Shown in pieces: positions 202 through 13,057 of a stretch of DNA of 13,057 nucleotides (position 1 is the stretch's first letter; each line of letters starts with the position of its first letter). The DNA is taken from the IMG/VR virus record IMGVR_UViG_2778261569_000004. One strand, written 5' to 3'. The position numbers and the translations under genes are program-made. Source of the stretch: a virus. Lineage: Duplodnaviria > Heunggongvirae > Uroviricota > Caudoviricetes. The notes under the pieces are model-generated. The model searched no databases and was not told the DNA's origin. It saw nothing but the letters and a program-made list of their open reading frames with translations.

Positions 202-480
202 TTAATCGAAATTCTTTTCTTTGATTCCTGCGGCCCTGATGGCTTTCATTACTGCAATTACCGTTTTGTCACGCCCATCCTCATAACCCATCGCATAAGC
301 ACCTTCTTCACCATCTTTCCAAAGGTCGTCATTCGATTCGGGCCAGTCGATATCCAGTTCAATAGCAGAGCGCGATGCCTGCCATATCACCCAGGCAAAC
401 TCTTTTAATTCATCGTCTCCCGTGAACTGGCTTTTGTCTTTTGACCACCAGTTTTCAAACTGTCGGTAGCTATCGTTCAC
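202..480 (-). CDS. Hypothetical nin-region phage protein (about 92 aa)
   Basis: ORF track frame 202..495. I place the start at GTG 480..478 because a GGAGAGGG Shine-Dalgarno sits immediately upstream, whereas the TTG at 495 falls inside the terminator T-tract. Acidic, Trp-rich protein; no family recognised. Confidence 0.45.
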   Translation of the reverse strand: MNDSYRQFENWWSKDKSQFTGDDELKEFAWVIWQASRSAIELDIDWPESNDDLWKDGEEGAYAMGYEDGRDKTVIAVMKAIRAAGIKEKNFD

Positions 481-493
481 TTCCCTCTCCCCC

Positions 494-524
494 AAATAAA
501 AAGGCCTGCGATTACAGCAGGCCT
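494..524 (-). terminator. Rho-independent terminator (minus strand) downstream of the replication-gene cluster
   Basis: Perfect 8-bp stem AGGCCTGC/GCAGGCCT (502-509 / 517-524) with a 7-nt loop; on the minus strand it is followed by TTTTATTT (plus 494-501). Confidence 0.55.
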
Positions 525-549
525 GTTATTAACTCAGTGATGTAGATGG

Positions 550-819
550 TCATTGCTTCATCTCCCTTTCCATTTCATCAATGTCAACGTCATCAGGAAG
601 ATGGGAGCAATACGCCGCTATACCATGATGATTTATCTCATACCCTTTGAACGTTACCATCTGGCGCGTAATCTCAACTTCGTTCAGGAATCCGCCATCG
701 CATAACTGCCTGGCTATTTTCGATTTGGTCTGGATTATTGGTAGTGCCTGTTCTTTCAAAGCGTATGATATTTGCGCATCCCATGCCTTTTCGAGAATGG
801 CTAATTGTTTTTTATTCAT
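550..819 (-). CDS. Hypothetical protein translationally coupled to the helicase gene (89 aa)
   Basis: ATG at 819..817 overlaps the helicase stop codon (819-821) by one nucleotide; ORF track 550..819. No family recognised. Confidence 0.5.
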   Translation of the reverse strand: MNKKQLAILEKAWDAQISYALKEQALPIIQTKSKIARQLCDGGFLNEVEITRQMVTFKGYEINHHGIAAYCSHLPDDVDIDEMEREMKQ

Positions 820-2255: not shown

Positions 2256-3144
2256 CGTGTTCACCCTCACGAACTTTCAGGTAGGTATTGTCGTTAAGCA
2301 GGAAATCAAATCCCTTTTTGTGCCAGACGGTTCCGCGCTGATGGTTTGGGCGCTCTTCGAACATCCATCGGCAATTTTCGCCTACGTAGCTCAAATAATT
2401 TCTCCAGTCCTGCATCGTGAACCCATGCCCGTCAAGCTGGCGGGTTATCACTCCGGCTTTGCGCCAGAACGTTCGGATCTGGTTTTTACGCTTGTCATTC
2501 AGTGCGCGGATTTTTGGCGCTTCAGGAAGGATTTCGTGGTAAGCATCGACAACATCCTGACAGCTGACGGAAGGTTTTTTCTTGTCAGACTTTTTGTCTG
2601 CTGTGGCACTCTCTAATACGTCAGTATTAGAGATAATATTATTATATTCTTTATCTGTGGTAATTTGCTGGTAATCTGCTGGTACAGTATTGCTTGCAGG
2701 CATTGGTATTGCTGGCTTTGAGGTGGTAATTTGCTGGTAATCTGCTGGTACAAAATTTGACTGATAATCGTCATATTTCTCTACCGAGAAAACTGAGAAT
2801 TTACCGTGTGAAACCCAGTCAATCATGCCGAGTTTTTTGAACTTTCTAAGCAGGTACTGAACGCGATCTGGTTTGAGTCCTGTTTCAAACGCCAGAGAGT
2901 TTCTACCGCCAAGTAGCTTCCCTCTGCCTACCAGAATTTCTCCTGCGTCAGTCATTACATACTCAGGCGTATGCTTTGCTTTGAGGATTAAGTGAACCCA
3001 CAGATGCGCAGCTTCTGCGTCCTTGTAAAACGGCACATCCATAATTTTACGGTGCAGCAAGGCATACCCCTTACCGCTGCTTTGATGCGGTTGTTGTAGC
3101 CTTCTGGCCTCTCTGGCTTCGGCTAGATTAGATATGTTACTCAT
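2245..3144 (-). CDS. Replication initiator protein (lambda O / P22 gene 18 analogue) with origin iterons inside its coding sequence
   Basis: Sits between cII and the helicase as O does in lambdoid phages. Contains a direct-repeat iteron array plus an adjacent AT-rich tract (see repeat feature). AAGGAG Shine-Dalgarno before ATG 3144. The 3' end overlaps the helicase start by 11 nt. The protein is not obviously lambda-O-like by eye, so the family assignment rests on position and the iterons. Confidence 0.7.
2657..2753. repeat. Origin-of-replication iteron array (ori) inside the O-like gene
   Basis: Two perfect 30-bp direct repeats GTGGTAATTTGCTGGTAATCTGCTGGTACA at 2657-2686 and 2724-2753. Each holds two approximately 11-bp subunits GGTAAT(T/C)TGCTGG, with a degenerate copy GGTATTGCTGG at 2705-2716. 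An AT-rich tract (about 2615-2655) lies downstream in the O reading direction, as at ori-lambda. The repeats encode a duplicated [10 protein letters not shown] peptide in the initiator. Confidence 0.7.
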
Positions 3145-3283
3145 GACCTTTCTCCTTCTGCATCAGCTTCACTTTTTCCAACTCAGCCCGGAATCGACAA
3201 GGCTGCTTGAAGCTGGACAGGAAGCGATCACGTAGTATGTGTTTGTGAATTTTGTCCTGGTAAGGACTGAGTTGTTTTGTCAT
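3137..3283 (-). CDS. Putative small protein (48 aa) between cII and the initiator gene
   Basis: ATG at 3283..3281 with an AGGAG Shine-Dalgarno 7 nt upstream; translation [48 protein letters not shown]; stop overlaps the initiator start. Below the ORF-track size cut-off and unsupported by homology. Confidence 0.25.
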
Positions 3284-3317
3284 AATTACTCCTGTGGATT
3301 GATCCAGTCTTTCTACA

Positions 3318-3596
3318 TCAGGCCTCGAAGAATTCGCCGTTCTTCGGGGCTTTTTCTTTTGTCAGGATTCTGGCTACTTTCTTAGCCAGTTCCGCCAACT
3401 CCTCGTCTTCAACACCCCATTCAAGAACAGCCAGAAGCATTCCCATTTTGGGGATGAAGCTATCTTTCCATCGCGAAATTTGCGATTCATTAATCCCTAA
3501 CGCGTCGGCAACCTTTCGCTGACCACGTACAGCAATTCGATTCAGGATGTTGCTTGTAATTGCATTCGCTTTCTTGCGAGTACTTGTAAGTTGCAT
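3318..3596 (-). CDS. cII: CII transcriptional activator (lysogeny establishment)
   Basis: Recognised similarity to lambda CII, including the near-identical block SQISRWK...[13 protein letters not shown]. The translation-initiation region TAAGGAAATACTTACATATG matches the classic lambda cII ribosome-binding site, so the start is ATG 3596, not the upstream start in the ORF track. Confidence 0.85.
3323..3360 (+). terminator. Rho-independent terminator on the strand antisense to cII (oop-like terminator)
   Basis: Stem CCTCGAAGAA/TTCTTCGGGG (3323-3332 / 3340-3349, one G-U pair), 7-nt loop, then CTTTTTCTTTT (3350-3360). It lies on the plus strand inside the 3' end of minus-strand cII, the geometry of the lambda oop RNA terminator. 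Confidence 0.55.
3550..3563 (+). promoter_or_regulatory. CII-binding site TTGC-N6-TTGC (PRE-like establishment promoter -35 region)
   Basis: TTGCTTGTAATTGC on the plus strand inside the cII N-terminal codons, oriented to drive transcription antisense through cro towards cI, as lambda PRE does. The -10 element is not confidently identified. Confidence 0.5.
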
Positions 3597-3655
3597 ATGT
3601 AAGTATTTCCTTAACAAATAAGAAGTTATGCGCATCAAATTATGCGCGTTGTATT

Positions 3656-3698
3656 CCCGCATTTCGGCGGGAATGATGACCATGACTGTTAAAGAGCG
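3656..3698 (-). promoter_or_regulatory. nutR site (boxA plus boxB hairpin)
   Basis: On the minus strand just after the cro stop: boxA CGCTCTTTAACA (plus 3687-3698, reverse complement), then boxB hairpin CCCGC-CGAAAT-GCGGG (plus 3656-3671). The boxB sequence is identical to the one at nutL. Confidence 0.6.
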
Positions 3699-3704
3699 GT
3701 GTTA

Positions 3705-3899
3705 CTATTTGTTTTTCTTGTTGCTTGGGAAAGGACGAACTTCCTCTCCAATCACACTGCCATCAGGCTTTACCGTAACCATGATGTTACGGCCTGCCAG
3801 AATGGCCTTGCTGATAGCGCACTGGATTACACCAAAGTCACTGGCTGCTTTAGCCTGTCCATGGATTTTGGCGTAATCGGCAAGTGTCATTCGAATCAT
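3705..3899 (-). CDS. cro: Cro repressor
   Basis: Recognised similarity to lambda Cro (TLADYA..GQ.K.A.D.GV.Q.AI.KAI.AGR.I.....DGSV..EEV.PFPSNKK). Start placed at ATG 3899 with a GGAGAG Shine-Dalgarno 5 nt upstream. Divergent from cI across the operator region. Confidence 0.85.
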
Positions 3900-3929
3900 A
3901 TGCACTCTCCGTTATTAACCATGAACAAA

Positions 3930-3995
3930 GAATACTACAGGTATTCAAAGCAATCAATACTCAGGGTATTTTTAGTTTAAGTACCTTAGCTATTA
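3930..3995. promoter_or_regulatory. OR operator region: three 17-bp operators with divergent PR and PRM promoters
   Basis: Operators GAATACTACAGGTATTC (3930-3946) and CAATACTCAGGGTATTT (3955-3971) are palindromic; a degenerate third site AAGTACCTTAGCTATTA lies at 3979-3995. Centre spacings are 25 and 24 bp. PR candidate on the minus strand: -35 TTGATT, 17-bp spacer, -10 TATTCT. PRM candidate on the plus strand: -10 TAGAAT at 3994-3999, which places +1 at about the A of the cI ATG (leaderless; no Shine-Dalgarno before cI). Confidence 0.6.
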
Positions 3996-4005
3996 GAATT
4001 AAGCT

Positions 4006-4722
4006 ATGGAAAATAAAAAATCACTGACGACAGAACAGCTCGAAGACGCTAAGCGGCTTAAGGCTTTGTATGAGTCAAAAAAGAAAGAATTGGGAATAAC
4101 CCAATACTCAATCGCTGATGAACTGGGTATCACCCAAGGAGCGGTAGGGCATTATCTTAATGGCAGAAACGCGCTAAACGTTGAGGTCGCATCTGGTTTT
4201 GCACGTTTGTTGCAAGTCTCAATTGCTGATTTTAGCCAGTCAATTGCTGCCAAGGTTGCAGAACAGGCAGAAAGCCTTAAGAGCGATGCCAACGTAAGGT
4301 ATGCAGGGGAATACAGAGCAGGAAAGAGGTATCCGGTGTTAAGCAGTATCCAGGCTGGCTCGTGGTGTGAAGCATGCGAACCATACACCATTAAAGACAT
4401 AGATGTTTGGCTTGAGTCTGACGCGCATATTCAAGGTAATGCGTTCTGGCTTAAAGTGGAAGGTGATTCAATGACGGCACCGGTTGGGTTAAGCATTCCA
4501 GAGGGAACATTCGTTCTTTTCGATACCGGAAGGGAGGCGATCAACGGCAGCTTGGTCATAGCAAAACTTTCTGACTCTAACGAAGCAACATTCAAGAAGC
4601 TGATAATCGACGGCGGAAATAAATACCTCAAGGGACTTAATCCTGCATGGCCTCTCGTGCCAATCAATGGAAACTGCAAGATTATAGGCGTTGCAATTGA
4701 GACAAAACTAAGGCTGGTTTGA
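4006..4722 (+). CDS. cI: CI repressor (HTH DNA-binding domain plus LexA/S24-type autocleavage domain)
   Basis: Recognised similarity to lambda CI: N-terminal LTxEQLEDAKRLKALYE.KK.ELG..Q.S.AD..G and C-terminal FWL.VEGDSMTAP ... ATFKKLI (Ser/Lys dyad). Divergent from cro. Confidence 0.9.
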   Translation: MENKKSLTTEQLEDAKRLKALYESKKKELGITQYSIADELGITQGAVGHYLNGRNALNVEVASGFARLLQVSIADFSQSIAAKVAEQAESLKSDANVRYAGEYRAGKRYPVLSSIQAGSWCEACEPYTIKDIDVWLESDAHIQGNAFWLKVEGDSMTAPVGLSIPEGTFVLFDTGREAINGSLVIAKLSDSNEATFKKLIIDGGNKYLKGLNPAWPLVPINGNCKIIGVAIETKLRLV

Positions 4723-4739
4723 TCACGCAAGGGGCGATT

Positions 4740-5108
4740 ATGGTTGGAACCGCTATAGCAAGCTTTTTTGGGATGTTGGCAATCTCGACAATTTACGGCT
4801 TAGCGCATGCTTTTATTGCGAAATCTCTATCAGAAAAAATAAGCCAGGCTTGGGCGCATAGATCAGCTCGTTTCATGATTCTGGTGATCATAGCAATACA
4901 AGGGATATCTGCATTTATCCTCTATGGATCAAGCTTATACCTATTGTATCAAGGCGCGACATTTACGCCTTACACCAGTGATTACGGAACTCTATACGAT
5001 GGTAGTGAAGACATCACTGTGGCTTGGATCGTCTTTGGTTTATCTATGGCCGTGTCTGTTGTAGCAGACATCATTAAGGTAATTCTCGTCTTAACCTTCG
5101 CTGACTAA
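4740..5108 (+). CDS. Small integral membrane protein in the rex/sie position, co-transcribed with cI (candidate superinfection-exclusion or defence protein)
   Basis: ORF track frame 4719..5108; start placed at ATG 4740 with an AAGGGG Shine-Dalgarno, 18 nt after the cI stop. Three hydrophobic helices predicted by eye (about residues 1-25, 45-70 and 95-120). It occupies the lambda rexAB slot between cI and OL. No homologue recognised. Confidence 0.6.
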   Translation: MVGTAIASFFGMLAISTIYGLAHAFIAKSLSEKISQAWAHRSARFMILVIIAIQGISAFILYGSSLYLLYQGATFTPYTSDYGTLYDGSEDITVAWIVFGLSMAVSVVADIIKVILVLTFAD

Positions 5109-5193
5109 CCTATAATCCCGGCAGCAATAGCTATCGGGATCCACTTCACATATCCCGCATAAAAAGCACTGAACAAGCAGACACCGAAAAAAT

Positions 5194-5281
5194 AAATATC
5201 CTTTGTATTCATTTGCTTATCATTATTTCACCAAAAATAAATACCTTGGGTATTTACACAATAAAATACCTACAGTATTCT
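5194..5281 (+). promoter_or_regulatory. OL operator region and PL promoter
   Basis: Three 17-bp operators of the same family as OR: AAATATCCTTTGTATTC (5194-5210), AAATACCTTGGGTATTT (5239-5255) and AAATACCTACAGTATTC (5264-5280). PL candidate: -35 TTTACA (5253-5258), 17-bp spacer, -10 TATTCT (5276-5281), overlapping the operators as in lambda. Confidence 0.55.
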
Positions 5282-5326
5282 TTAGCCATCAGCAGGGCGC
5301 TGGAAGCCAAACGGAACAGATTGGCA

Positions 5327-5367
5327 GGCTCTTTAACATTGATGGGATTGTCCCGCCGAAATGCGGG
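5327..5367 (+). promoter_or_regulatory. nutL site (boxA plus boxB hairpin)
   Basis: boxA GGCTCTTTAACA (5327-5338) followed by boxB CCCGC-CGAAAT-GCGGG (5352-5367), identical to the boxB at nutR; lies in the leader between PL and N. Confidence 0.6.
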
Positions 5368-5475
5368 AACCAAAGAGTAGTTGGCTTTGGGGTGACGTGA
5401 AGTGCAGCTGCACGACGGCAACCGGAAGATAAGCACCCGGCGCGTCACCGCCAAAGTCAATCATCGGAGGTCAAC

Positions 5476-5748
5476 ATGACAGTAGTCATTACATATCTGG
5501 CTGACGATAACGCCAGAAATCGCCGCAGAGCACGCAGACAGGCTCAACGTGAACAGGCAATGCAAGAGCAGCGACTGGCACGAAAAATTGCGCTAAAGCT
5601 CTCTGGTTGCGTCAGAGCAGATAAAGCAGCATCACTCGGAAGCCTTTGCTGCAAGGAAGAAGATGAACGCAGTGGAAGTATTTGCCTGCCAAACGTAGCC
5701 ATTTACGCGGCAGGATACCGGAAATCAAAACAACTGACAGCGAGGTAA
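5476..5748 (+). CDS. N: Antitermination protein N (P22 gene 24-like)
   Basis: N-terminal arginine-rich motif NARNRRRARRQAQREQ (boxB RNA-binding ARM); C-terminus ...AIYAAGYRKSKQLTAR resembles my recollection of P22 gp24; GGAGG Shine-Dalgarno; first gene downstream of PL and nutL. Confidence 0.8.
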   Translation: MTVVITYLADDNARNRRRARRQAQREQAMQEQRLARKIALKLSGCVRADKAASLGSLCCKEEDERSGSICLPNVAIYAAGYRKSKQLTAR

Positions 5749-5751
5749 GTG

Positions 5752-5976
5752 ATGAATCAGACATACATTCCATCATGCTTGAGAAATCTGCCAAAGCAGA
5801 AAGCAAAGCCCCGCAAGCAAGCCATAAAGGACGCTAAGGCAGAGGTTATTGATCAAGCAATACAATTGCTCAGGGAGGAGTTAAGAAGTGGCAAGCTCGA
5901 AGGAATGATGATGCCCTATCAGCGCGGATATCTATCGGCGATTAGTAAGTTGGAAGTATTGAAGAGTGAATTATGA
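5752..5976 (+). CDS. Hypothetical early protein (74 aa)
   Basis: ATG 5752 with a GAGG Shine-Dalgarno, starting 4 nt after the N stop. Basic N-terminus, predicted helical. In the position of ral or kil-type genes but not recognisably similar. Confidence 0.45.
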   Translation: MNQTYIPSCLRNLPKQKAKPRKQAIKDAKAEVIDQAIQLLREELRSGKLEGMMMPYQRGYLSAISKLEVLKSEL

Positions 5977-6038
5977 ACTATCTGGAATTTCCGGATGGTT
6001 CATTGTTTTGGCAGCAAACCACTTATTTGAGGTGATGT

Positions 6039-6125
6039 ATGGAAGAAGAATTTGAAGAGTTCGAAGAGCATCCTCAGGATGTGATGGAACAATACCAGGA
6101 CTATCCGTATGACTACGACTATTGA
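6039..6125 (+). CDS. Putative very small acidic protein (28 aa)
   Basis: ATG 6039 preceded by GAGGTGA; translation MEEEFEEFEEHPQDVMEQYQDYPYDYDY. Below the ORF-track cut-off; speculative. Confidence 0.2.
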   Translation: MEEEFEEFEEHPQDVMEQYQDYPYDYDY

Positions 6126-6309
6126 TAAAAATCAATGGTGTGGACAATTCAAGCGATGCAATGGATGCAAGCTGCAATCGGAATGCATGGTTAAGCCTGA
6201 AGAAATGTTTCCTGTAATGGAAGATGGGGAATATGTCGATAAATGGGCAATACGAACGACGGCAATGATTGCCAGAGAACTTGGTAAACTGAACAACAAG
6301 GCTGCCTGA
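6109..6309 (+). CDS. Hypothetical small Cys-containing protein (66 aa)
   Basis: ORF track. Four cysteines in CGQFKRCNGCKLQSEC, a possible metal-binding knuckle. Ends just before a terminator. Confidence 0.4.
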   Translation: MTTTIDKNQWCGQFKRCNGCKLQSECMVKPEEMFPVMEDGEYVDKWAIRTTAMIARELGKLNNKAA

Positions 6310-6327
6310 TGGCGGCCTTTATTTTTG
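6298..6327 (+). terminator. Rho-independent terminator
   Basis: Stem AAGGCTGCC/GGCGGCCTT with a TGAT tetraloop, followed by TATTTTTGG. Confidence 0.6.
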
Positions 6328-6374
6328 GCATAAACAACAGAATAAACACAGCACTGAATTATTTGAGGTGAGAT

Positions 6375-6845
6375 ATGACAAAATCATGGAGCGTACCTTT
6401 TCCTGAATCAGAAACTGAACATGATGGAATGCCTGTTTTCTGGAGATTCCAAGCGACAGTTGAAGAAGATGGAATCAAAATATTCGCACTTCAATATATA
6501 GCTTTTCATCAGACAGATCATTATGCATGGTTGGTTCCTGCGCATTGGATTGTTAATTTTAAACCAGCACCAAATCAGTGGTTACAGGAATGGAAACAAA
6601 GGAGAAATAGATATGCAATTAAGAAAGTAGCAAAAAATGCCGAAAGATCTTTTGCATTCCCGACGAAGAAACTTGCCATTGAAAGTTTATTGCGCCGGAA
6701 GAAGTACCATTTAATGAGAATCAAACAAGATTTGGCTGTTGTATCAACTCTTGTTGATGGGATGAAGAATATTGATACATCAATACCAGATATTGAATAT
6801 AACTTTGGACACAACCAAGAAACAGAAAATTGGGTGTTTTATTAG
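6375..6845 (+). CDS. Hypothetical protein on a low-GC moron-like insert (156 aa)
   Basis: ATG 6375 with a GAGGTGA Shine-Dalgarno. A hand count over the first 300 nt gives roughly 37% G+C, against roughly 45% at the start of erf. Bracketed by the terminator at 6298-6327 upstream and by an inverted repeat (6860-6887) and terminator-like hairpin (6951-6974) downstream. No family recognised. Confidence 0.6.
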   Translation: MTKSWSVPFPESETEHDGMPVFWRFQATVEEDGIKIFALQYIAFHQTDHYAWLVPAHWIVNFKPAPNQWLQEWKQRRNRYAIKKVAKNAERSFAFPTKKLAIESLLRRKKYHLMRIKQDLAVVSTLVDGMKNIDTSIPDIEYNFGHNQETENWVFY

Positions 6846-7039
6846 TACGAATAAGCACTGTGTATTCATTCCAACGAGTGAATACACGGAGCAATGTCGC
6901 TCGTAACTAAACAGGAGCCGACTTGTTCTGATTATTGGAAATCTTCTTTGCCCTCCAGTGTGAGGGCCTTTTTATATGCATACCAATAACGCTTCACTCG
7001 AGGCGTTTTCGTTATGCAATCAAACAGAAGGAGCATCCT

Positions 7040-7210
7040 ATGCAACAGTTCGCTATTGCAGGGGCGGCATCGGTTCGCCCTTTCAACCCGATTTTATCGG
7101 TACAGCATTCACGAAAAAATATTTTAACCGGAGCAGACTTTAAACAACCAAGAATGAAAAGCTTGCTCGAAAAGCTTTGGGATATTTTGAAACAACAAGG
7201 CCGCCCATGA
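7040..7210 (+). CDS. Hypothetical small protein (56 aa)
   Basis: ATG 7040 with a GAAGGAG Shine-Dalgarno 6 nt upstream; in frame with the longer TTG-initiated ORF in the track (6935), which I consider an over-extension. Confidence 0.4.
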   Translation: MQQFAIAGAASVRPFNPILSVQHSRKNILTGADFKQPRMKSLLEKLWDILKQQGRP

Positions 7211-7377
7211 GTTTTACAGATAACTGGTCAGACGAAGAATTCATTCGTCAGATGAAAGAATTAATCGGTAACGAAGGAGATATTCATGTCACTTGCAACC
7301 ACCGTGAAGGAGAGCAAGTTACAGAGACGCATGTACACGCAGCAGGCGTTAATGTATCGCCAGAAGGGAGATCGTGA
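7207..7377 (+). CDS. Hypothetical small protein (56 aa), directly upstream of erf (Arf-like position)
   Basis: ATG 7207 overlaps the stop of the preceding gene (ATGA). Its position matches P22 arf, but that is not verifiable by eye. Confidence 0.35.
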   Translation: MSFTDNWSDEEFIRQMKELIGNEGDIHVTCNHREGEQVTETHVHAAGVNVSPEGRS

Positions 7378-7466
7378 AGGTGTTCGCGTATTTTTAAATG
7401 CGGCAAAGACTGAAGTATTAAATCAGCGTTATTTCCTTGGGCCATGTCCATTCTGAGAACAATCAT

Positions 7467-8072
7467 ATGAGCAAAGAATTTTACGCAAGACTGGCAGCTA
7501 TTCAGGAAAATCTGAACGCGCCCAAGAATCAGTACAACTCATTCGGTAAATATAAATACAGAAGCTGCGAAGACATTCTTGAAGGCGTTAAGCCGTTACT
7601 GAATGGTCTGTTTTTATCAATCAGCGATGAAGTTGTGTTGATTGGTAATCGGTATTACGTGAAAGCCACGGCAACTATTACCGATGGCGAAAACAGTCAT
7701 ACGGCAACCGCTCTTGCACGAGAGGAAGAAAGCAAGAAAGGAATGGATTCTGCACAAGTTACGGGAGCTACAAGCTCTTATGCACGCAAGTATTGCCTCA
7801 ATGGTTTGTTCGGCATTGATGATGCGAAAGATGCAGATACAGACGAGCATAAACATCAGCAGAACGCAGCAGCAAAGCAATCAAAACCATCACCTACACC
7901 TGAACAGGTTCTAAAAGCATTCACTGACGCAGCATTGCAGAAAAACACCGTAGAAGAGCTTAAACAGGCGTTCGCCAAAGCGTGGAAGATGCTCGAAGGC
8001 ACACCGGAGCAGCACAAAGCGCAGGACGTTTACAACATCAGACGAGACGAATTAGAAGGAGCGGCTGCTTAA
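7467..8072 (+). CDS. erf: Erf-family single-strand annealing recombinase
   Basis: N-terminal region MSKEFYARLAAIQENLNAPKNQYNSFGKYKYRSCEDILEGVKPLL matches my recollection of P22 Erf closely. Start at ATG 7467, not the upstream start in the ORF track. Confidence 0.8.
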   Translation: MSKEFYARLAAIQENLNAPKNQYNSFGKYKYRSCEDILEGVKPLLNGLFLSISDEVVLIGNRYYVKATATITDGENSHTATALAREEESKKGMDSAQVTGATSSYARKYCLNGLFGIDDAKDADTDEHKHQQNAAAKQSKPSPTPEQVLKAFTDAALQKNTVEELKQAFAKAWKMLEGTPEQHKAQDVYNIRRDELEGAAA

Positions 8073-8455
8073 TGGCACATTCGATTACTGTAAGACTAAA
8101 CAAGCCCGCAAGAGAGTTTCAGGCCGGGGAAAATATCGGATTCAACATCCGTGCTGGCGTTCAGTATTACGATCGCCAGACAAAAAAGAAAGAATGGACA
8201 AACTACAACGCCGTTGTATTTGCCAAGCCGGGAGCGCAAGCGGATTACTACCGTAGTGTTCTTGTTGAAGGTGGCATTGTAGAAATTACCGGAGAAAACA
8301 TCAGGGTTGATGTTTATCAGGGGCAAAATGGTCAATCAATCACTCTTGAATTACTGAATGCAAAGATTGGATTTGCAGCTTCAGGAAATGGCCCGCAGCA
8401 GCAAAGTAGTAACCAGCAGAACACCCCTGTATACGACGATTCCATCCCATTCTGA
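8072..8455 (+). CDS. Putative ssDNA-binding protein with an SSB-type C-terminal tail (128 aa)
   Basis: ATG 8072 overlaps the erf stop (TAATG). C-terminus ...GNGPQQQSSNQQNTPVYDDSIPF has a Gln/Asn-rich linker ending in DDSIPF, mirroring the E. coli SSB tail (DDDIPF). The N-terminal region is not canonical SSB by eye, so the OB-fold assignment is inferred. Confidence 0.55.
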   Translation: MAHSITVRLNKPAREFQAGENIGFNIRAGVQYYDRQTKKKEWTNYNAVVFAKPGAQADYYRSVLVEGGIVEITGENIRVDVYQGQNGQSITLELLNAKIGFAASGNGPQQQSSNQQNTPVYDDSIPF

Positions 8456-8478
8456 TTTAGAAAAATAAGGATTTAATT

Positions 8479-8772
8479 ATGCCAGCGCCTCTGTATGGTG
8501 CGGATGACCCGCGCCGCTGTTCCGGCAATTCCGTATCGGAGGTGCTGGATAAATTCAGGAAAAATTACGACCGGATAATGTCGCTACCGCAGGAAACAAA
8601 AGAGGAAAAGGAATTTCGCCACTGCGTATGGCTTGCAGAGAAAGAAGAACGCGAGCGAATTTACCAGACATCAATCCGACCATTCCGCAAAGCCACATAT
8701 ACCCACTTCCCTGAAATTGACCCGCGCCTGCGTAATTACCGCTCACGCTATGGCGCTATCAGTAATAACTGA
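8479..8772 (+). CDS. Hypothetical early protein (97 aa); size and position compatible with an Abc2-like anti-RecBCD protein
   Basis: ORF track. Lies downstream of erf, where P22 carries abc1 and abc2. The Abc2 assignment is positional and from memory only. Confidence 0.4.
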
Positions 8773-8782
8773 GGAATTTACC

Positions 8783-8950
8783 ATGAGAGGACTTGCATAC
8801 AATCCCAGCATTCTTCCGGCAGAAATGATTATTCGCCAGCGCGTAAAGCCAATGCCATCGAGAGAGGAATTACTTAAGAGAAATTCTTTTCCGTCAGTAA
8901 ATCAAAACAAATATCTGAATGCGATGTTGCGTAAAGGAGGCAAGCAGTGA
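8783..8950 (+). CDS. Hypothetical small protein (55 aa)
   Basis: ATG 8783 with a GAGGA Shine-Dalgarno; same frame as the longer ORF in the track. Confidence 0.35.
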
Positions 8951-9246
8951 GTGTATGTCTTATTGATAAACGTCGACGTGGGCAACAAATACCATCTGTT
9001 GAAATGCCGAATCACACATGGTTTTGCGTACTTGATATCGATGGTATGGATACGTTGGTTGACACTCGTCATTACTGCGATACCGCAACAGCTACTCCGG
9101 CGAAAGCAAAGAAAATTGCTGCTCTGATAGAAAACTGGACTCCACCTGATGGTTGGTGCAATGGGAATGATCGAGATTGGCATGAAAAAATGAAGGGCTA
9201 TATCTGCGATTTCTTACGTAAATGCAACGGATTCAGGGTGATGTGA
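8947..9246 (+). CDS. Hypothetical protein (99 aa)
   Basis: GTG 8947 with a strong AAGGAGG Shine-Dalgarno 8 nt upstream; overlaps the preceding stop (GTGA). No family recognised. Confidence 0.45.
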
Positions 9247-9247
9247 C

Positions 9248-9802
9248 ATGAACAAGATTGACTATCAGGCACTGCGTGCCAAGGCAGAAAAAGCAACGTG
9301 TGGTGAGTGGTCGCTCGAATATGGAGAGGAGAGATTTGATGCTGGTGATGCGCTAATTCATCGTGAAGTTGTTGGATATCTTCCCATTTGCAGAATTGAA
9401 GGAGCGCATCCTGAAAGCGGTTTCGATGAAGATTTCCAGATGGAACAGCAGGCCAATGCTGAATTTATTGCTGCCTTTAATCCAAAGGTTGCTTTGGCAC
9501 TGCTGGATGAACGGGAAAGAAACCAGCAATACATCAAACGCCGCGACCAGGAGAACGAGGATATTGCGCTAACGGTAGGGAAGCTGCGCGTTGAGCTTGA
9601 AGCAGAAAAACAGCGGGCAAAAGTTCTATTTATGGAAAATGCTCGGCTTAAGTCAGGCATAGCCGGTCTGATACACCTCGGTATTCGATATGCAGATGTT
9701 GAGGTCATGAAAATTGCTGGAGATGCCCAGCTTTCTACCCCATGCACTGACAGCATCATAAACAGCATTGCAACAGGCATTCGCATCAAAGGAGGTGAGT
9801 AA
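9248..9802 (+). CDS. Hypothetical protein with a coiled-coil segment (184 aa); possibly Ead/Ea22-like
   Basis: ORF track. The N-terminus QALRAKAEKATCGEW resembles a motif I associate with prophage Ead/Ea22-like proteins; the central region ERERNQQYIKRRDQENEDIALTVGKLRVELEAEKQRAKV looks coiled-coil. Confidence 0.45.
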   Translation: MNKIDYQALRAKAEKATCGEWSLEYGEERFDAGDALIHREVVGYLPICRIEGAHPESGFDEDFQMEQQANAEFIAAFNPKVALALLDERERNQQYIKRRDQENEDIALTVGKLRVELEAEKQRAKVLFMENARLKSGIAGLIHLGIRYADVEVMKIAGDAQLSTPCTDSIINSIATGIRIKGGE

Positions 9803-9978
9803 TGCGTGTGGCATGTATCGGCTTGTTACCGTACCCGACTCGTTTTTGGGCTTCTGCGCTAATTGCAAAGCCGCATGTCCTGATGGCTGACAACATCATC
9901 CCGGCACCAAAGCGCCGCCATACCGGTATTGCATCGGCACGACGAGCAGCAAAGAAACGCAGGAGAGCAAAACGATGA
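9802..9978 (+). CDS. Putative small basic protein (58 aa)
   Basis: ATG 9802 overlaps the upstream stop (TAATG) and its own stop overlaps the next start (ATGA). Translation MRVACIGLLPYPTRFWASALIAKPHVLMADNIIPAPKRRHTGIASARRAAKKRRRAKR. Below the ORF-track cut-off. Confidence 0.3.
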   Translation: MRVACIGLLPYPTRFWASALIAKPHVLMADNIIPAPKRRHTGIASARRAAKKRRRAKR

Positions 9979-10163
9979 AAAACCGTAAAGCAAAGATTCT
10001 GTTAGTTCGTAGAAACGCTCCTGGCGTCTGGCAGTGGGTGAGACTCAGCAACCGACGGGTGGGGTTAATGAAACATTACGGGATGATGGATTGTGGTTTT
10101 TGCAAAAAGCCCAGCGCGGCGCAAAACCGCTGGAAAAACCACTTGCGTACTAAAGGAGAGTGA
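9975..10163 (+). CDS. Hypothetical small protein (62 aa)
   Basis: ORF track; start coupled to the upstream gene. Confidence 0.4.
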   Translation: MKNRKAKILLVRRNAPGVWQWVRLSNRRVGLMKHYGMMDCGFCKKPSAAQNRWKNHLRTKGE

Positions 10164-10164
10164 T

Positions 10165-10374
10165 ATGGCTATTGCCGCAAGTTACACCATGCATCTCTAT
10201 TGTGACTGCCGCCAGTGTACGGAAGGTGTATATCCAGTGCCAGACTTCGGAGAGTATATCGGCACGTCATGGGCTGGTTGTGCAAAAGAGGCGCGTAAGG
10301 ATGGCTGGCGAATAAGCAAAGACAAAACACGTGCTTTTGCGCCTGGGCATAAAGTTTTGAGGATTAACAAATGA
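10165..10374 (+). CDS. Hypothetical small Cys-rich protein (69 aa)
   Basis: ATG 10165 preceded by AAGGAGAG; contains C-x-C-x2-C ... C (HLYCDCRQC...AGC). Confidence 0.4.
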   Translation: MAIAASYTMHLYCDCRQCTEGVYPVPDFGEYIGTSWAGCAKEARKDGWRISKDKTRAFAPGHKVLRINK

Positions 10375-10697
10375 CCACTATTACCAGAGAACAAGCTCTG
10401 AAAATTATTGAGGCAGCCGATGAGGTTATTAGTGCGCTTGCCGGAACTAACGAGGATGTTCACCCTGGTAGCGATAACATGCTACGCCTGTGGGATGACC
10501 TGAATGACCGTTACGCGCCGCCGGAAGTTGTGCGTGAGCTGGCACGGATTGCGCTGGCATCGTTGGAAGCAAAACCAATAGGTGCTTCCACATTGCAGAA
10601 CAGCAAGTTGACGGCACAAGTGACTACCTCAAGGATGGAGAATGGCCTATTGATAATGGGACAATTGAAGTATACGCCGCCCCTCCAGTGCCAGTAG
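10371..10697 (+). CDS. Hypothetical protein (108 aa)
   Basis: ATG 10371 overlaps the upstream stop (ATGA); ORF track. Confidence 0.45.
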   Translation: MTTITREQALKIIEAADEVISALAGTNEDVHPGSDNMLRLWDDLNDRYAPPEVVRELARIALASLEAKPIGASTLQNSKLTAQVTTSRMENGLLIMGQLKYTPPLQCQ

Positions 10698-11173
10698 TAC
10701 CTGAAGAAAAACCAATGCCTAACCCTCTTAGCATGTACGCGGTCGATGCTGTTGCCGCTATTGCAGAGGTGAGAGGCTGGAACGCCTGCCGCGCCGCCAT
10801 GCTTCATGGTGCCGAACCTGTAAGCCAAACTTACAAGTCACAACACACGCAGTTTGAACAAGTTGCTGACCTCTACGAAATGCAATTTGATGACGGTCGC
10901 ACTTGTGCCTTTCACACTGATGCGCAAAAGGCTGCGCAATGGCTTCAGGCATGCGACGGAAACAGGGTTCAGGAATACGTGAAGCTGGAGCGATTGCGTA
11001 ATGCGCTATCGGGCAACTCTCCGGTAACTCCGGATGGTTGGGTTATGGTGCCGAAGGAACCAACTCAGGCCATGATTAAAGCGTGGCTATCAGAGATTGC
11101 TAACTTTCGCGGTCATGCTGCTGGTTACAGGGCTGCTCTTGAGGCAGCACCACAGGAGGTTAACCGTGGCTAA
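10688..11173 (+). CDS. Hypothetical protein (161 aa from a GTG start; frame open upstream to 10538)
   Basis: ORF track, GTG start with no clear Shine-Dalgarno. Protein-like sequence (DGEWPIDNGTIEVYAAPPVP) continues upstream in the same frame, overlapping the previous gene. Confidence 0.4.
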   Translation: MPVVPEEKPMPNPLSMYAVDAVAAIAEVRGWNACRAAMLHGAEPVSQTYKSQHTQFEQVADLYEMQFDDGRTCAFHTDAQKAAQWLQACDGNRVQEYVKLERLRNALSGNSPVTPDGWVMVPKEPTQAMIKAWLSEIANFRGHAAGYRAALEAAPQEVNRG

Positions 11174-11450
11174 CCTGCAACTTGCCGTCAAAGGTGAATA
11201 CTTCGATGCCATGATTCGCGGAGAGAAAACAGAAGAGTATCGCCTGTGTAATGACTACTGGAATAAGCGAATTATGTTCCGGGAGTATGACCGCCTGATT
11301 ATCACAAAGGGATATCCGAAGCGCGACGACTCCAGCCGCAGAATAGACGTCCCGTATGACGGATATGAAATCAAGACAATCACACATCCCCACTTCGGCG
11401 ATAAACCGGTAAAGGTGTTCGCGATAAATGTGAATATCGGCAATGAATAA
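11166..11450 (+). CDS. Hypothetical protein, possibly ASCH/PUA-like (DUF3850-like), about 95 aa
   Basis: GTG 11166 preceded by AGGAGG. The pattern KGEYFDAMIRGEKTEEYRLCND ... resembles my recollection of DUF3850/ASCH phage proteins. The ORF track gives a longer upstream start at 11097. Confidence 0.4.
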   Translation: MANLQLAVKGEYFDAMIRGEKTEEYRLCNDYWNKRIMFREYDRLIITKGYPKRDDSSRRIDVPYDGYEIKTITHPHFGDKPVKVFAINVNIGNE

Positions 11451-11485
11451 CAACCCTCGCATTTGCGGGGATTTCTTTTATCTGA

Positions 11486-11509
11486 ACTCGCTACGGCGAG
11501 TTTTGTTTT
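11486..11509 (+). terminator. Rho-independent terminator
   Basis: Stem ACTCGC/GCGAGT with a TACG loop, followed by TTTTGTTTT. Confidence 0.5.
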
Positions 11510-11821
11510 ATGGAGATGATTATGGTCTGTTCAACATTCAACCATCTAACGTTACAGAAATACCAGCCAGACCCTGAAGATTTATGCTCACTGTGTGGCG
11601 GAAATCATGGTAAAGCCGCCATGATCGAATGTAATGACAAAATCCACATTTGCCTTAATTGCGTTGATGTCCTCGTTGATATCAAAAATGAGAGAGAAGA
11701 TAAAAAGCGTAGCGAGGCTATTCGCGCCTTAGATTCATGGATGCGAGATGGGTATAGTGCTGCGCAAATTTATGACTTAGCAATATCAAAAGGCGAAATA
11801 CCAGGAGTACGCATCGAATAA
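11510..11821 (+). CDS. Hypothetical zinc-ribbon-like protein (103 aa)
   Basis: ORF track. Two Cys pairs, CSLCGG and CLNC, about 20 residues apart. An alternative start at ATG 11522 is better placed relative to the GGAG at 11512-11515. Confidence 0.45.
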   Translation: MEMIMVCSTFNHLTLQKYQPDPEDLCSLCGGNHGKAAMIECNDKIHICLNCVDVLVDIKNEREDKKRSEAIRALDSWMRDGYSAAQIYDLAISKGEIPGVRIE

Positions 11822-11861
11822 GACATAACCGATATTCGAATTGAAGAACTGAAAGAACACC

Positions 11862-11888
11862 AAGCCGCCTGATGGCGGTTTCTTTTTG
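11862..11888 (+). terminator. Rho-independent terminator
   Basis: Stem AAGCCGCC/GGCGGTTT with a TGAT tetraloop, followed by CTTTTTG. Confidence 0.6.
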
Positions 11889-11902
11889 CCTGGAGAATTA
11901 AG

Positions 11903-12094
11903 ATGACCGATACCAGCCTGATTCCTGAGAAAGAAGTGATGAACAAGCTCGGTGTTTCATCACGTCAGACAATCTGGAACTATACCAAACGACACGGATT
12001 TCCGAAGCCAGTCAGAACCCACCCCAAATCATACCTTCGTGAAGCTGTTGAAGGGTGGATTCTTAACGGTGGCGTTAATCAGAAATGCTCCTGA
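11903..12094 (+). CDS. xis: AlpA-type excisionase / DNA-binding regulator
   Basis: AlpA-family pattern (EVMNKLGVSSRQTIWNYTKRHGFPKPVR...W). The 3' end overlaps the integrase 3' end, convergently. Confidence 0.55.
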   Translation: MTDTSLIPEKEVMNKLGVSSRQTIWNYTKRHGFPKPVRTHPKSYLREAVEGWILNGGVNQKCS

Positions 12095-12499
12095 TGTGCC
12101 AGAACAATTTATCAGCGTGAAGCTCATACGCTTTGCGCTGAGCCTCTATCCAATCGTGTTTATTGTATACGGACATTATCCCGCCAAGTTCATGACCGAG
12201 CATTCGCTCAGTAACATGAGGCTCGACATTCATCTCGGACAGACGTGTAACAAGCGTTCTTCTGAAATCATGTGTTCGCCAGTAACCTAGATCCATCCCT
12301 CCCCTTATTCTATTTACGAATCGGTTGGCTGCAGCGATGCTGATCGGTTTGTTTATGTCTTCTCCAGGGAAAAGAACATCATTGTACGTTGTCATGGCCT
12401 TTTCGAGAAAAGGCTTAATTTGTTCGAAGATTGGACGACGGATAACATTACCCATCTTGCTATGCTCTTTCGGTACGGTCCATACGTTGTCCAGCAGGT
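12075..12499 (-). pseudogene. int: Tyrosine integrase, C-terminal catalytic fragment only; N-terminal part displaced by an IS insertion
   Basis: Catalytic motifs HDFRRT and LGHELGGIMSVYNKHDW (Tyr nucleophile) present. The reading frame runs upstream without a stop to the IS terminus at 12500; the conserved box I Arg and the N-terminal domain are absent from this side. Confidence 0.75.

Positions 12500-13057
<558 letters not shown>

What the first reader, a model, noticed from the sequence alone, without database searches (positions are those of the whole stretch)
11903..12499. Excisionase and integrase are convergent and overlap at their 3' ends
xis (plus strand) and int (minus strand) overlap by about 20 bp tail to tail, unlike the co-directional xis-int arrangement of lambda and P22. 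Convergent transcription implies antisense interference between the early-left operon, which reads into int antisense, and int expression. That is a built-in regulatory layer resembling retroregulation.
Basis: seen in the sequence. Interest (0 to 1): 0.4.

Follow-up and report, generated by a model that had tools for sequence, protein, structure and literature searches.

The report
Known convergent xis–int module, IS-broken
The tail-to-tail overlap of a small excisionase gene and an integrase gene is real, but it is the ordinary, already described layout of the phage Φ24B family of recombination modules, and in this window the integrase has been cut in two by an insertion sequence.

Summary
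The xis-like ORF (11903-12094, +) and the int ORF (stop at 12075-12077, -) converge and share 20 bp. But "int" here is only codons 253-392 of a 392-codon gene, because an IS1203-family element starts at 12500.

The layout is not new. Xis is 100% identical to that of HK140, mEp234, Sf101 and Stx phages 1717/2851. It is 47% identical to the experimentally validated Φ24B Xis, and Int is 57% identical to Φ24B Int. Φ24B int and xis are also convergent, with a 17-bp overlap. In 55 related loci (Int 41-100% identical), 47 overlap by 14, 17, 20 or 23 bp. The module occurs in 524 of 5426 complete E. coli genomes.

The documented consequence in Φ24B is promoter uncoupling: int is transcribed constitutively from its own promoter, and xis from the CI-controlled pL operon. 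Antisense interference is possible, since no terminator separates the genes, but it is unproven. Φ24B RNA-seq shows xis up 51-fold and int unchanged (1.7-fold) on induction. I found no conserved element beyond the dual-coded tails. In this window there is no working int left to regulate.

Verdict: ordinary and already known; low interest.

The parts
4006..4722 (+). CI-type (LexA-like) repressor gene. It marks the start of the leftward (here plus-strand) immunity and early-left region.
   Evidence: phrog_4 transcriptional repressor, E=3e-49.
5328..5367 (+). nutL-like site: boxA-like GCTCTTTAACA (5328-5338) and a boxB-like hairpin CCCGC-CGAAAT-GCGGG (5352-5367), upstream of the N-like gene.
   Evidence: Read by eye in the sequence. 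The resemblance to lambda/P22 nut sites is from my own knowledge, so this is an inference.
5476..5748 (+). N-like antitermination protein gene of the early-left operon.
   Evidence: phrog_271 anti-termination protein N-like, E=3e-33.
11455..11503 (+). Two terminator-like hairpins (11455-11470 and 11484-11503) inside the early-left operon, upstream of xis.
   Evidence: Consensus scan. Eight terminator-like sites were found against 0.9 expected.
11862..11888 (.). GC-rich hairpin AAGCCGCC-TGAT-GGCGGTTT followed by TTCTTTTT, ending 14 nt before the xis start. It is a strong intrinsic terminator on the + strand and a weaker terminator-like site on the - strand. It is a candidate tL-type terminator and a candidate end of the int mRNA.
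   Evidence: Scan hits on both strands. It is annotated as a rho-independent terminator in HK140. An equivalent hairpin sits before Φ24B xis. It is not conserved outside the E. coli phages: 3 of 50 loci.
11903..12094 (+). xis: 63-aa AlpA-family winged-helix recombination directionality factor, the last gene of the early-left operon. A GGAG ribosome-binding site lies at 11892-11895.
   Evidence: It is 100% identical in HK140, mEp234, Sf101 and Stx phages and 47% identical to Φ24B Xis. The family profile hits PDB 8c3t, an AlpA family protein, at E=6e-7.
12075..12094 (.). The 20-bp tail-to-tail overlap. It encodes the last 6 codons plus stop of Xis (N-Q-K-C-S-stop region) and of Int (R-S-I-S-D-stop region). 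The Int stop TAA is the reverse complement of the TTA within Xis codons V58-N59. The Xis stop lies one codon after Int's conserved FWH.
   Evidence: Synonymous variation in int drops only here.
12075..12499 (-). 3' fragment of the P4-like tyrosine integrase gene (codons 253-392 plus stop). It is a pseudogene that lacks the promoter, the arm-binding domain, the core-binding domain and the box I arginine.
   Evidence: It is 100% identical to residues 253-392 of the O111 Int. It matches Pfam PF00589 profile positions 51-169 only. The full-length protein has Arm-DNA-bind_3 at 4-85 and Phage_integrase at 204-366.
12500..13057 (-). Right end of an IS1203/IS629-type IS3-family insertion sequence (terminal repeat TGAACCGCCCCGGG...; transposase orfB 3' part 12542-13033), inserted into int. 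It runs off the window.
   Evidence: The record annotation reads 'IS3-like element IS1203 family transposase'. The window matches the O111:H8 prophage at 99.9% identity exactly up to 12499.

Best explanation
This is the recombination module of a lambdoid (P22-like early region) prophage of the type that integrates next to sbcB, and it belongs to the Φ24B family of int/xis modules.

A P4-like tyrosine integrase is transcribed from its own promoter beside attP towards the phage interior. A 63-aa AlpA-type excisionase is the last gene of the CI-controlled, N-dependent early-left operon. The two genes therefore meet tail to tail, packed so tightly that their weakly conserved C-terminal tails are encoded on opposite strands of the same 20 bp.

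How it works, shown for Φ24B and inferred here by homology: Int is made constitutively, also in the lysogen, and is uncoupled from the repressor. Xis is made only after induction, so directionality of recombination is set by Xis alone.

Inferred from relatives: three arm-type Int sites directly upstream of the int start suggest negative autoregulation of int, as in KplE1.

Structural inference: because no terminator separates the genes, the transcripts must overlap. Whether that overlap regulates anything is open, and the overlap itself looks like an inherited consequence of compaction.

In this particular window an IS1203 element has inserted after codon 252 of int. The module is therefore dead, and the prophage cannot excise with its own integrase.
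For: Anatomy:
- ORFs and the 20-bp overlap.
- IS junction at 12500.
- The int fragment equals residues 253-392.
- Domain content of the full-length Int.

Identity:
- Identical Xis in HK140, mEp234, Sf101 and Stx phages 1717/2851.
- Window 1-12499 is 99.9% identical to the sbcB-adjacent prophage of O111:H8, where int is intact.
- The module is present in 524 of 5426 complete E. coli genomes.

Homology to Φ24B:
- Xis 47% identical and Int 57% identical.
- Φ24B int 236-1405 (+) and xis 1389-1571 (-) are convergent with a 17-bp overlap.

Function in Φ24B (PMC3064807):
- int is inverted and has its own promoter, mapped by 5'-RACE.
- int is expressed in lysogens and is not repressed by CI.
- Xis lies next to the 3' end of int, is AlpA-like, and its excision activity was shown experimentally.
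- RNA-seq: xis up 51-fold and int 1.73-fold on induction (PMC4651098).

Operon context:
- CI, N-like, Erf and Abc2 genes all lie on the + strand upstream of xis.
- A nutL-like site is present.
- An intrinsic terminator sits directly before xis, and no sigma-70-like promoter was found in 11400-12560.

Family conservation:
- 47 of 55 loci with a convergent Xis overlap int by 14-23 bp.

Arm sites:
- GYGTACCAR occurs 5 times in HK140 (0.1 expected). Three copies lie at 10-52 nt upstream of the int ATG and two lie beyond the core.
Against: - No experiment exists for this exact Int/Xis pair. Xis scores below Pfam's gathering threshold for Phage_AlpA as a single sequence (17.8 against 21 bits).
- The int promoter could not be located by the consensus scan in HK140. 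It lies outside the window in any case.
- The terminator before xis is not conserved outside the E. coli phages (3 of 50 loci). The N-dependence of xis expression is therefore a local inference.
- The near-universal retention of the overlap could reflect selection that I cannot measure, rather than mere inheritance.
- The 5' part of int beyond the IS is not in the window. A simple insertion, as opposed to a deletion or rearrangement, is assumed by analogy with O157 FRIK2455.
Confidence: 0.8

Rival explanations
1. The convergent, terminator-less overlap is a selected regulatory device. N-antiterminated pL transcripts run antisense through int and lower Int after induction. Conversely, the int mRNA, whose 3' end would cover all of xis up to the hairpin at 11862-11881, silences leaky xis in the lysogen. 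The mechanism would be RNA polymerase collision and/or RNase III cleavage of the duplex, giving an outcome similar to sib retroregulation.
For: - No intergenic space or terminator exists between the genes in 52 of 55 family members.
- The only terminator-like hairpin near the junction lies upstream of xis and scores on both strands in the window and in Φ24B.
- pL, nutL and an N-like gene are present upstream on the same strand.
- Antisense control by such architectures is documented in other phages: 186 convergent pR/pL interference (PMC7498355) and the 80alpha ith/tha antisense unit (PMC11087260).
- In Φ24B the int RNA stays flat although phage genomes presumably replicate after induction, which could hide a per-copy decrease. 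This last point is my inference.
Against: - There is no direct evidence. In Φ24B, int RNA is not reduced when xis rises 51-fold.
- Some relatives have gaps of 2, 25 or 52 bp instead of an overlap.
- Synonymous variation along int is flat (0.79-0.93). It dips only in the dual-coded last codons, so no extra conserved RNA element exists.
- The hairpin before xis is absent from most of the family.
- The Φ24B authors explain the phenotype by promoter uncoupling alone and do not mention overlap, antisense or terminators.
- In this window int is a promoterless fragment.
Confidence: 0.25
2. The small ORF is not an excisionase. Instead it is an AlpA-like transcriptional activator of int (as AlpA is for intA of CP4-57), or it has an unrelated function, as happened with the 'xis' of staphylococcal phage 80alpha, which is in fact an immunity inhibitor.
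For: - The Pfam hit is to the AlpA family and lies below threshold.
- PGAP annotates the ORF only as an 'AlpA family regulatory protein' or 'helix-turn-helix transcriptional regulator'.
- The 80alpha precedent shows that small int-adjacent ORFs can be mis-annotated as xis (PMC11087260).
Against: - The ORF is 47% identical over its whole length to Φ24B Xis. That protein drove excision when co-expressed with Int from a plasmid, independently of the native int promoter (PMC3064807).
- It has co-evolved with, and stayed adjacent to, this Int lineage across Enterobacterales, Vibrionaceae and Shewanella.
- Other AlpA-family members such as TorI are bona fide RDFs.
Confidence: 0.07
3. The overlap is an annotation or ORF-calling artefact. 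The true int or xis stop would lie elsewhere, or the xis ORF would be a chance ORF on the antisense strand of the int 3' flank.
For: Small ORFs antisense to real genes are common in six-frame lists. One search lists many in this region.
Against: - Both stops are fixed by the sequence.
- The Xis family alignment shows conserved F33, P34 and W52 and a GG[VI]N motif across 19 divergent members.
- The Int C-terminus ADK[LI]FWH is conserved up to 6 codons before its stop.
- Φ24B xis RNA is induced 51-fold and the protein is active.
Confidence: 0.02

Closest known systems
Φ24B (vB_EcoP_24B) int-xis module (Fogg et al. 2011, Nucleic Acids Res 39:2116, PMC3064807)
   Same: - Homologous proteins: Int 57% identical and Xis 47% identical.
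- int is 'inverted' relative to lambda, and xis sits at the 3' end of int in the pL orientation.
- The tail-to-tail overlap is in the same relative frame: 17 bp in Φ24B and 20 bp here.
- A hairpin terminator lies just upstream of xis.
- xis follows the exo-xis-type early-left genes.
   Different: - The attachment site differs. This type sits next to sbcB.
- Xis is 3 residues longer, so the overlap is 3 bp longer.
- The early region here is P22-like (Erf, Abc2) rather than Exo/Bet.
- int here is interrupted by IS1203.
- The published work does not discuss the overlap or antisense transcription.
Lambda int/xis with sib retroregulation
   Same: - xis is a distal gene of the N-antiterminated pL operon.
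- The biological need is the same: Int without Xis for integration, and both for excision.
   Different: - In lambda, xis and int are co-directional and overlap head to tail (28860-29078 and 27812-28882).
- In lambda, int is read from pL and from pI inside xis (PMC2951348).
- sib is an RNase III site downstream of int that acts on read-through sense transcripts (my own knowledge).
- Here int is on the other strand, so pL cannot make int mRNA at all and no sib-type element applies.
KplE1 / HK620 / Sf6 IntS-TorI modules (Panis et al. 2010, PLoS Genet, PMC2951348)
   Same: - An AlpA/TorI-type RDF is present.
- int and RDF transcription are uncoupled.
- The int promoter region coincides with the arm of att. 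Here three GYGTACCAR repeats lie 10-52 nt upstream of the int ATG in HK140, which predicts Int autoregulation.
   Different: - In HK620 the torI-like gene, attP and int are all co-directional, with attP between them. They therefore end up at opposite ends of the prophage.
- Here xis and int stay adjacent and convergent in both the prophage and the circular form.
Coliphage 186/P2 switch (convergent pR and pL; int on the lysogenic transcript, apl/cox on the lytic one)
   Same: - The integrase and the RDF are on opposed transcription units.
- Transcriptional interference between convergent units is experimentally established there (PMC7498355 citing Callen et al. 2004).
   Different: - In 186 the promoters face each other at close range at the 5' ends of the operons.
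- Here the genes meet at their 3' ends, about 6.5 kb from pL.
- The proteins are unrelated: Apl/Cox against AlpA-type.
Staphylococcal phage 80alpha ith/tha antisense 'noncontiguous operon' (Nat Microbiol 2024, PMC11087260)
   Same: A small gene once annotated as xis lies antisense to a lysogenic transcription unit next to int. Antisense transcription contributes to switching between lysogenic and lytic expression states.
   Different: - That ORF is not an excisionase and is embedded inside an operon with its own constitutive promoter.
- There is no homology to the gene here.
- The small protein here is homologous to a proven RDF.

Membership tests
Φ24B-type convergent int/xis recombination module | The integrase is homologous to Φ24B Int (P4-like tyrosine recombinase with an N-terminal arm-binding domain). 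| tested here: met
   The full-length O111 copy is 57% identical to Φ24B Int over 391 aa. The window fragment is 100% identical to residues 253-392 of that copy. Both Ints carry Arm-DNA-bind_3 and Phage_integrase domains.
Φ24B-type convergent int/xis recombination module | A small RDF homologous to Φ24B Xis. | tested here: met
   47% identity, E=4e-19, over 58 of 63 residues.
Φ24B-type convergent int/xis recombination module | xis lies at the 3' end of int on the opposite strand (tail to tail). | tested here: met
   The overlap is 20 bp here and 17 bp in Φ24B. It is 14-23 bp in 47 of 55 family loci.
Φ24B-type convergent int/xis recombination module | xis is co-oriented with, and distal in, the CI-controlled pL operon. 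| tested here: met
   CI, N-like, Erf and Abc2 genes all lie on the + strand upstream of xis. No promoter-like site occurs in 11400-12560. Actual co-transcription was not tested.
Φ24B-type convergent int/xis recombination module | int is transcribed from its own attP-proximal promoter, independently of CI. | not testable with these tools
   The 5' part of int and its upstream region are not in the window because of the IS at 12500. In relatives the upstream region aligns with Φ24B, but the consensus scan finds no sigma-70 site. 5'-RACE exists only for Φ24B.
Φ24B-type convergent int/xis recombination module | Xis-dependent excision by the cognate Int. | not testable with these tools
   This is shown only for Φ24B (PMC3064807). 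In this window Int is truncated.
AlpA / TorI-type winged-helix RDFs (Pfam PF05930 Phage_AlpA, HTH_17) | Sequence membership in the family. | tested here: inconclusive
   As a single sequence, PF05930 scores 17.8 bits against a gathering threshold of 21, and HTH_17 scores 16.8 against 27. Of 19 family members, 8 hit Phage_AlpA and 9 hit HTH_17. The family profile hits PDB 8c3t 'AlpA family phage regulatory protein' at E=6e-7. It also matches phrog_66 'excisionase and transcriptional regulator' at E=2e-8.
AlpA / TorI-type winged-helix RDFs (Pfam PF05930 Phage_AlpA, HTH_17) | Winged-helix fold. | tested here: inconclusive
   The single-sequence AlphaFold2 model has mean pLDDT 59.5. Helices at 9-16, 21-30 and 41-54 are compatible with the fold, but the model is too weak for a fold search.
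Tyrosine recombinase (Pfam PF00589) | A complete catalytic domain with the R...H-x-x-R...H/W...Y residues. | tested here: not met
   The window fragment matches only profile positions 51-169 of 172. It keeps HDFRR, GH and the VYNKHDW tyrosine but lacks the box I arginine region (GARLSELR, residues 237-244 of the full protein). The full-length gene in relatives meets the feature. The copy in the window is a pseudogene.
Lambda-type sib retroregulation | int is on the same strand as pL, so that the pL read-through transcript is int mRNA. | tested here: not met
   int is on the - strand and the pL operon is on the + strand. Lambda has both on one strand.
Lambda-type sib retroregulation | An RNase III-sensitive hairpin beyond the 3' end of int, formed only in antiterminated transcripts and separated from int in the prophage. 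| tested here: not met
   Downstream of the int stop lies xis (antisense) and then the hairpin at 11862-11881. That hairpin stays linked to int in both the prophage and the circular form. No conserved element was detected beyond the dual-coded tails. RNase III cleavage itself is not testable here.
KplE1/HK620-type module (int promoter within attL, RDF across attP) | attP lies between the RDF gene and int, all co-directional. | tested here: not met
   HK620 has torI-like 1457-1657 (-), attP core 1368-1383 and int 50-1207 (-). Here xis and int are adjacent and convergent, and attP lies beyond the int start.
KplE1/HK620-type module (int promoter within attL, RDF across attP) | Arm-type Int sites overlap the int promoter or leader. 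| tested here: met
   This was tested in the intact relative HK140, not in the window. Three GYGTACCAR copies lie at L001 4138-4180, 10-52 nt upstream of the int ATG (4128), and two more lie at 4411-4431 beyond the core (about 4350). Five matches were found against 0.10 expected.

The most novel reading that the evidence does not exclude
The terminator-less tail-to-tail junction, conserved from E. coli to Shewanella, may be an obligate sense/antisense pair that makes Int and Xis expression mutually antagonistic. In the lysogen, the constitutive int mRNA would carry a full antisense copy of xis as its 3' UTR and quench leaky xis, stabilising lysogeny. After induction, antiterminated pL transcription would run through int and shut it down per genome copy, preventing re-integration. 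This would be an RNA-level directionality switch that replaces lambda's pI/sib logic. It has not been described for the Φ24B family in the literature I could search.
Probability: 0.2. Interest if true: 0.45.

Novelty: already known. Interest (0 to 1): 0.17.

Why it matters
If the antisense idea were true, it would add an RNA-level layer to how a widespread class of Stx-converting and other lambdoid prophages controls excision. About 10% of complete E. coli genomes carry this module. Such control would bear on prophage stability and Shiga-toxin phage mobility.

As it stands, the finding documents an ordinary, previously described gene arrangement. The more practically relevant fact in this window is that an IS1203 insertion has inactivated the integrase. 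This should lock the O111-type prophage into the chromosome next to sbcB.

Tried and rejected
1. I searched for the exact int/IS junction (39-mer) in the species-representative genome collection and found no hit. No complete E. coli genome has the junction either. The source strain therefore remains unidentified, and I could not check for the 5' half of int beyond the IS.
2. The sigma-70 consensus scan for an xis promoter (window 11400-12560) and for Pint (HK140 2500-4500) gave no hits in either. This is uninformative for weak or activated promoters.
3. I tested whether the terminator hairpin upstream of xis is a family feature. It is present in only 3 of 50 non-redundant loci (window type, Φ24B, one Pantoea). 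I rejected it as a conserved part of the module.
4. I tested for a hidden conserved RNA or DNA element in the int 3' region using synonymous-codon entropy over 46 int genes. The profile is flat except in the dual-coded last codons, so I rejected this.
5. I considered the + strand hairpin inside int (12396-12415) as a terminator for xis transcripts. It is weak (3 GC pairs) and not conserved in Φ24B, so I rejected it as probably fortuitous.
6. I considered filing the module under the KplE1/HK620 class. I rejected this because attP separates torI and int there and all are co-directional.
7. The single-sequence AlphaFold2 model of Xis had pLDDT 59.5, too poor for a fold search, so I ran none.
8. 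NCBIfam gave no hit for Xis or for the N-like protein.
9. Literature searches for antisense or convergent transcription of int/xis in Φ24B-like phages found no paper addressing it.
Full report
**1. What is in the sequence**

The ORF list and the raw sequence show a 63-codon ORF at 11903-12094 on the plus strand. It has an ATG start, and a GGAG lies 8 nt upstream. A minus-strand reading frame has its stop codon at 12075-12077. The two frames share 12075-12094, which is 20 bp, tail to tail.

The finding does not say that the minus-strand gene is incomplete. Translating 12075-12560 on the minus strand gives an integrase-like sequence only from about 12497 downwards. From 12500 upwards the DNA is the terminal repeat of an IS3-family element (TGAACCGCCCCGGGTTTCCTGG...), followed by an rve-domain transposase ORF at 12542-13033 that runs to the end of the window.

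The int fragment (12078-12497) is 100% identical to residues 253-392 of a 392-aa integrase of E. coli O111. The full-length protein has an arm-DNA-binding domain (residues 4-85) and a catalytic domain (204-366). The window copy matches only profile positions 51-169 of Pfam PF00589. It has lost its promoter, two DNA-binding domains and the box I arginine region, so it is a pseudogene.

The identical IS end sits at a different position in the same int gene in O157:H7 FRIK2455, where the record annotates an IS1203-family transposase. This integrase has therefore been hit by IS1203 more than once.

**2. Where the window comes from**

Positions 1-12499 are 99.9% identical to a prophage of E. coli O111:H8 strains. 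The match stops exactly at 12499. In those strains int is intact and lies next to sbcB.

The junction with the IS is absent from 5426 complete E. coli genomes and from the species-representative collection.

The rest of the window is a P22-like lambdoid early region:
- DnaB-like helicase and CII on the minus strand.
- CI (4006-4722), an N-like antiterminator (5476-5748), Erf and Abc2 on the plus strand.
- A nutL-like boxA/boxB pair at 5328-5367 (recognised by eye).

Directly before xis lies a strong intrinsic terminator (11862-11888). It is annotated as a rho-independent terminator in HK140. Two more terminator-like hairpins lie at 11455-11503. No promoter-like site occurs in 11400-12560. I infer that xis expression needs read-through from pL, plausibly N-dependent.

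**3. What the two genes are**

Int is a P4-like tyrosine recombinase.

The evidence on the small protein is as follows:
- It scores below Pfam's threshold for Phage_AlpA on its own (17.8 against 21 bits).
- It matches PHROG 66, 'excisionase and transcriptional regulator'.
- A profile of 19 family members hits the solved 'AlpA family phage regulatory protein' 8c3t at E=6e-7.
- It is 47% identical over its whole length to the Xis of Stx phage Φ24B, whose excisionase activity was shown experimentally (PMC3064807).

The full-length Int is 57% identical to Φ24B Int. A single-sequence AlphaFold2 model was too weak to use (pLDDT 59.5).

**4. The arrangement is known and common**

The identical Xis, with the same 20-bp overlap with int, is annotated in phages HK140, HK544, mEp234, Sf101, APC_JM3.2 and several Stx1/Stx2 phages including 1717 and 2851. 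At least 80% of the 650-bp module is present in 524 of 5426 complete E. coli genomes.

In Φ24B itself the record has int at 236-1405 (+) and xis at 1389-1571 (-). These are convergent with a 17-bp overlap.

Fogg et al. 2011 described that int as 'inverted' relative to lambda. They found xis 'adjacent to the 3' of the integrase' and mapped a dedicated int promoter by 5'-RACE. They showed that int is expressed in lysogens and is not repressed by CI, while xis stays under pL control. A later survey of Stx phages repeats this point (PMC8136144).

Lambda, for comparison, has xis and int co-directional with a head-to-tail overlap. HK620 and KplE1 have the torI-like gene, attP and int co-directional, with attP in between.

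**5. How deep the arrangement goes**

A scan of one genome per species with an Int alignment returned 80 loci with Int 41-99% identical. I located the int stop in each of the 86 loci held. I then searched the opposite strand for Xis-like ORFs with an iterated HMM.

Fifty-five loci have a convergent Xis homologue at the int stop. The overlap lengths are:

| Overlap | Loci |
|---|---|
| 20 bp | 23 |
| 17 bp | 13 |
| 23 bp | 8 |
| 14 bp | 3 |
| 4 bp (Shewanella, Catenovulum) | 3 |
| 11 bp | 1 |
| 54 bp | 1 |
| gaps of 2, 25 and 52 bp | 3 |

The values 14, 17, 20 and 23 all keep the same relative frame. The junction sequences explain why:
- The Int stop TAA is the reverse complement of the TTA inside the conserved Xis codons [V/I]-N of the GG[VI]N motif.
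- The Xis stop falls one to three codons after Int's conserved ADK[LI]FWH.
- The lengths differ only by where the Xis tail ends.

The overlap thus covers only the weakly conserved tails of both proteins. The conserved cores abut but do not overlap.

**6. Is there evidence for antisense regulation?**

Structurally, transcripts must overlap in intact members, because there is no room for a terminator between the genes. The only good hairpin nearby is upstream of xis. It scores as terminator-like on both strands in the window and in Φ24B. The int mRNA may therefore carry all of xis in antisense.

Several results weaken the idea that this is a selected regulatory device:
- The hairpin is present in only 3 of 50 non-redundant family loci.
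- Synonymous-codon entropy along 46 int genes is flat (0.79-0.93 per 20-codon bin). It drops to 0.65 only in the last bin, at the dual-coded codons. No additional conserved RNA or DNA element is embedded in the int 3' region.
- In the Φ24B transcriptome, induction raised xis 51-fold (P=0.002). Int changed 1.73-fold (P=0.27) and is listed among the unaltered genes (PMC4651098).

That last result fits promoter uncoupling and gives no sign of a knock-down of int. One caveat is my own inference: phage DNA replication after induction could mask a per-copy decrease. Another is that the paper reports per-gene counts only.

None of the literature I could search discusses overlap, antisense RNA or interference for this module. 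Precedents for antisense or convergent control in other phages exist: 186 pR/pL and 80alpha ith/tha. The idea is therefore reasonable but untested. I give it about 0.2-0.25.

**7. Extra mechanistic detail from relatives (outside the window)**

In HK140 the motif GYGTACCAR occurs five times, all on the int strand, against 0.10 expected. Three copies lie 10-52 nt upstream of the int ATG. Two lie about 280-300 nt upstream.

Comparing the phage and prophage forms places the crossover at about 220 nt upstream of int, inside the annotated attP. This is the pattern of P' and P arm-type Int sites. It puts three of them over the int leader and promoter region. As in KplE1 (PMC2951348), this predicts negative autoregulation of int. 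The same repeats are recognisable in Φ24B.

**8. Verdict**

The layout differs from lambda and forces overlapping transcription, but it is the already published Φ24B-type layout, whose demonstrated logic is promoter uncoupling. The retroregulation analogy fails every defining feature of sib, and antisense interference remains a hypothesis.

In this window the integrase is a promoterless 3' fragment created by an IS1203 insertion, so the module is non-functional. Novelty: already known. Interest: low.

Noticed in passing
window 12500-13057: An IS1203/IS629-type IS3-family element is inserted into int after codon 252. The insertion is private to the window's source: O111:H8 relatives match at 99.9% identity up to 12499 and have an intact int. 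It should immobilise the prophage. O157:H7 FRIK2455 carries an independent IS1203 insertion at another position in the same int (L003, IS end at 5170).
   Followed up: yes
L001 (HK140) 4138-4180 and 4411-4431; also L004 upstream of int: Five direct GYGTACCAR repeats (0.10 expected) lie on the int strand. Three sit 10-52 nt upstream of the int ATG and two lie beyond the attP core. They are candidate P' and P arm-type Int sites, and they imply KplE1-like autoregulation of int.
   Followed up: partly
L004 (O111 11128) 5404-5630: Phage/prophage homology extends about 225 nt upstream of int, which is past the annotated sbcB start (5586). The phage attP seems to overlap the sbcB promoter and first codons and to replace them on integration. 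pL read-through across int would then enter sbcB in the sense direction.
   Followed up: no
window 12075-12094 and junctions in L005-L085: Overlap lengths across the family are 14, 17, 20 or 23 bp (always 3n+2). The Int stop is anchored in the Xis [V/I]-N codons (TTAA), and only the length of the Xis tail varies. Distant members (Shewanella, Catenovulum) overlap by 4 bp.
   Followed up: yes
window 11455-11503: Two consecutive terminator-like hairpins lie on the + strand between ORF 11097-11450 (phrog_625) and ORF 11510-11821 (phrog_3680). Together with the one at 11862-11888, this makes three terminators within 450 nt before xis.
   Followed up: no
window 11510-11821: A 103-aa ORF of unknown function (phrog_3680, no Pfam hit) has two CxxC pairs (CSLCGG...CLNC), suggesting a small zinc-binding protein just upstream of xis. 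This position holds variable genes in HK140 and the Stx phages.
   Followed up: no
window 5328-5367: A nutL-like boxA (GCTCTTTAACA) and a boxB-like hairpin lie upstream of the N-like gene. Palindromic operator-like AATACC..GGTATT sequences occur at about 5240-5280.
   Followed up: no
window 4719-5108: A 129-aa hydrophobic ORF lies immediately downstream of, and overlaps, the end of cI on the same strand. It could be a lysogen-expressed membrane protein (exclusion or moron type). I did not examine it.
   Followed up: no
L058-L075, L083, L086 (Vibrionaceae) and several Enterobacterales loci (for example L011, L030, L039, L046): About 30 loci with a homologous Int have no Xis-like ORF within 800 nt of the int stop. 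Either a different RDF is used or these elements are degraded or satellite-like.
   Followed up: no
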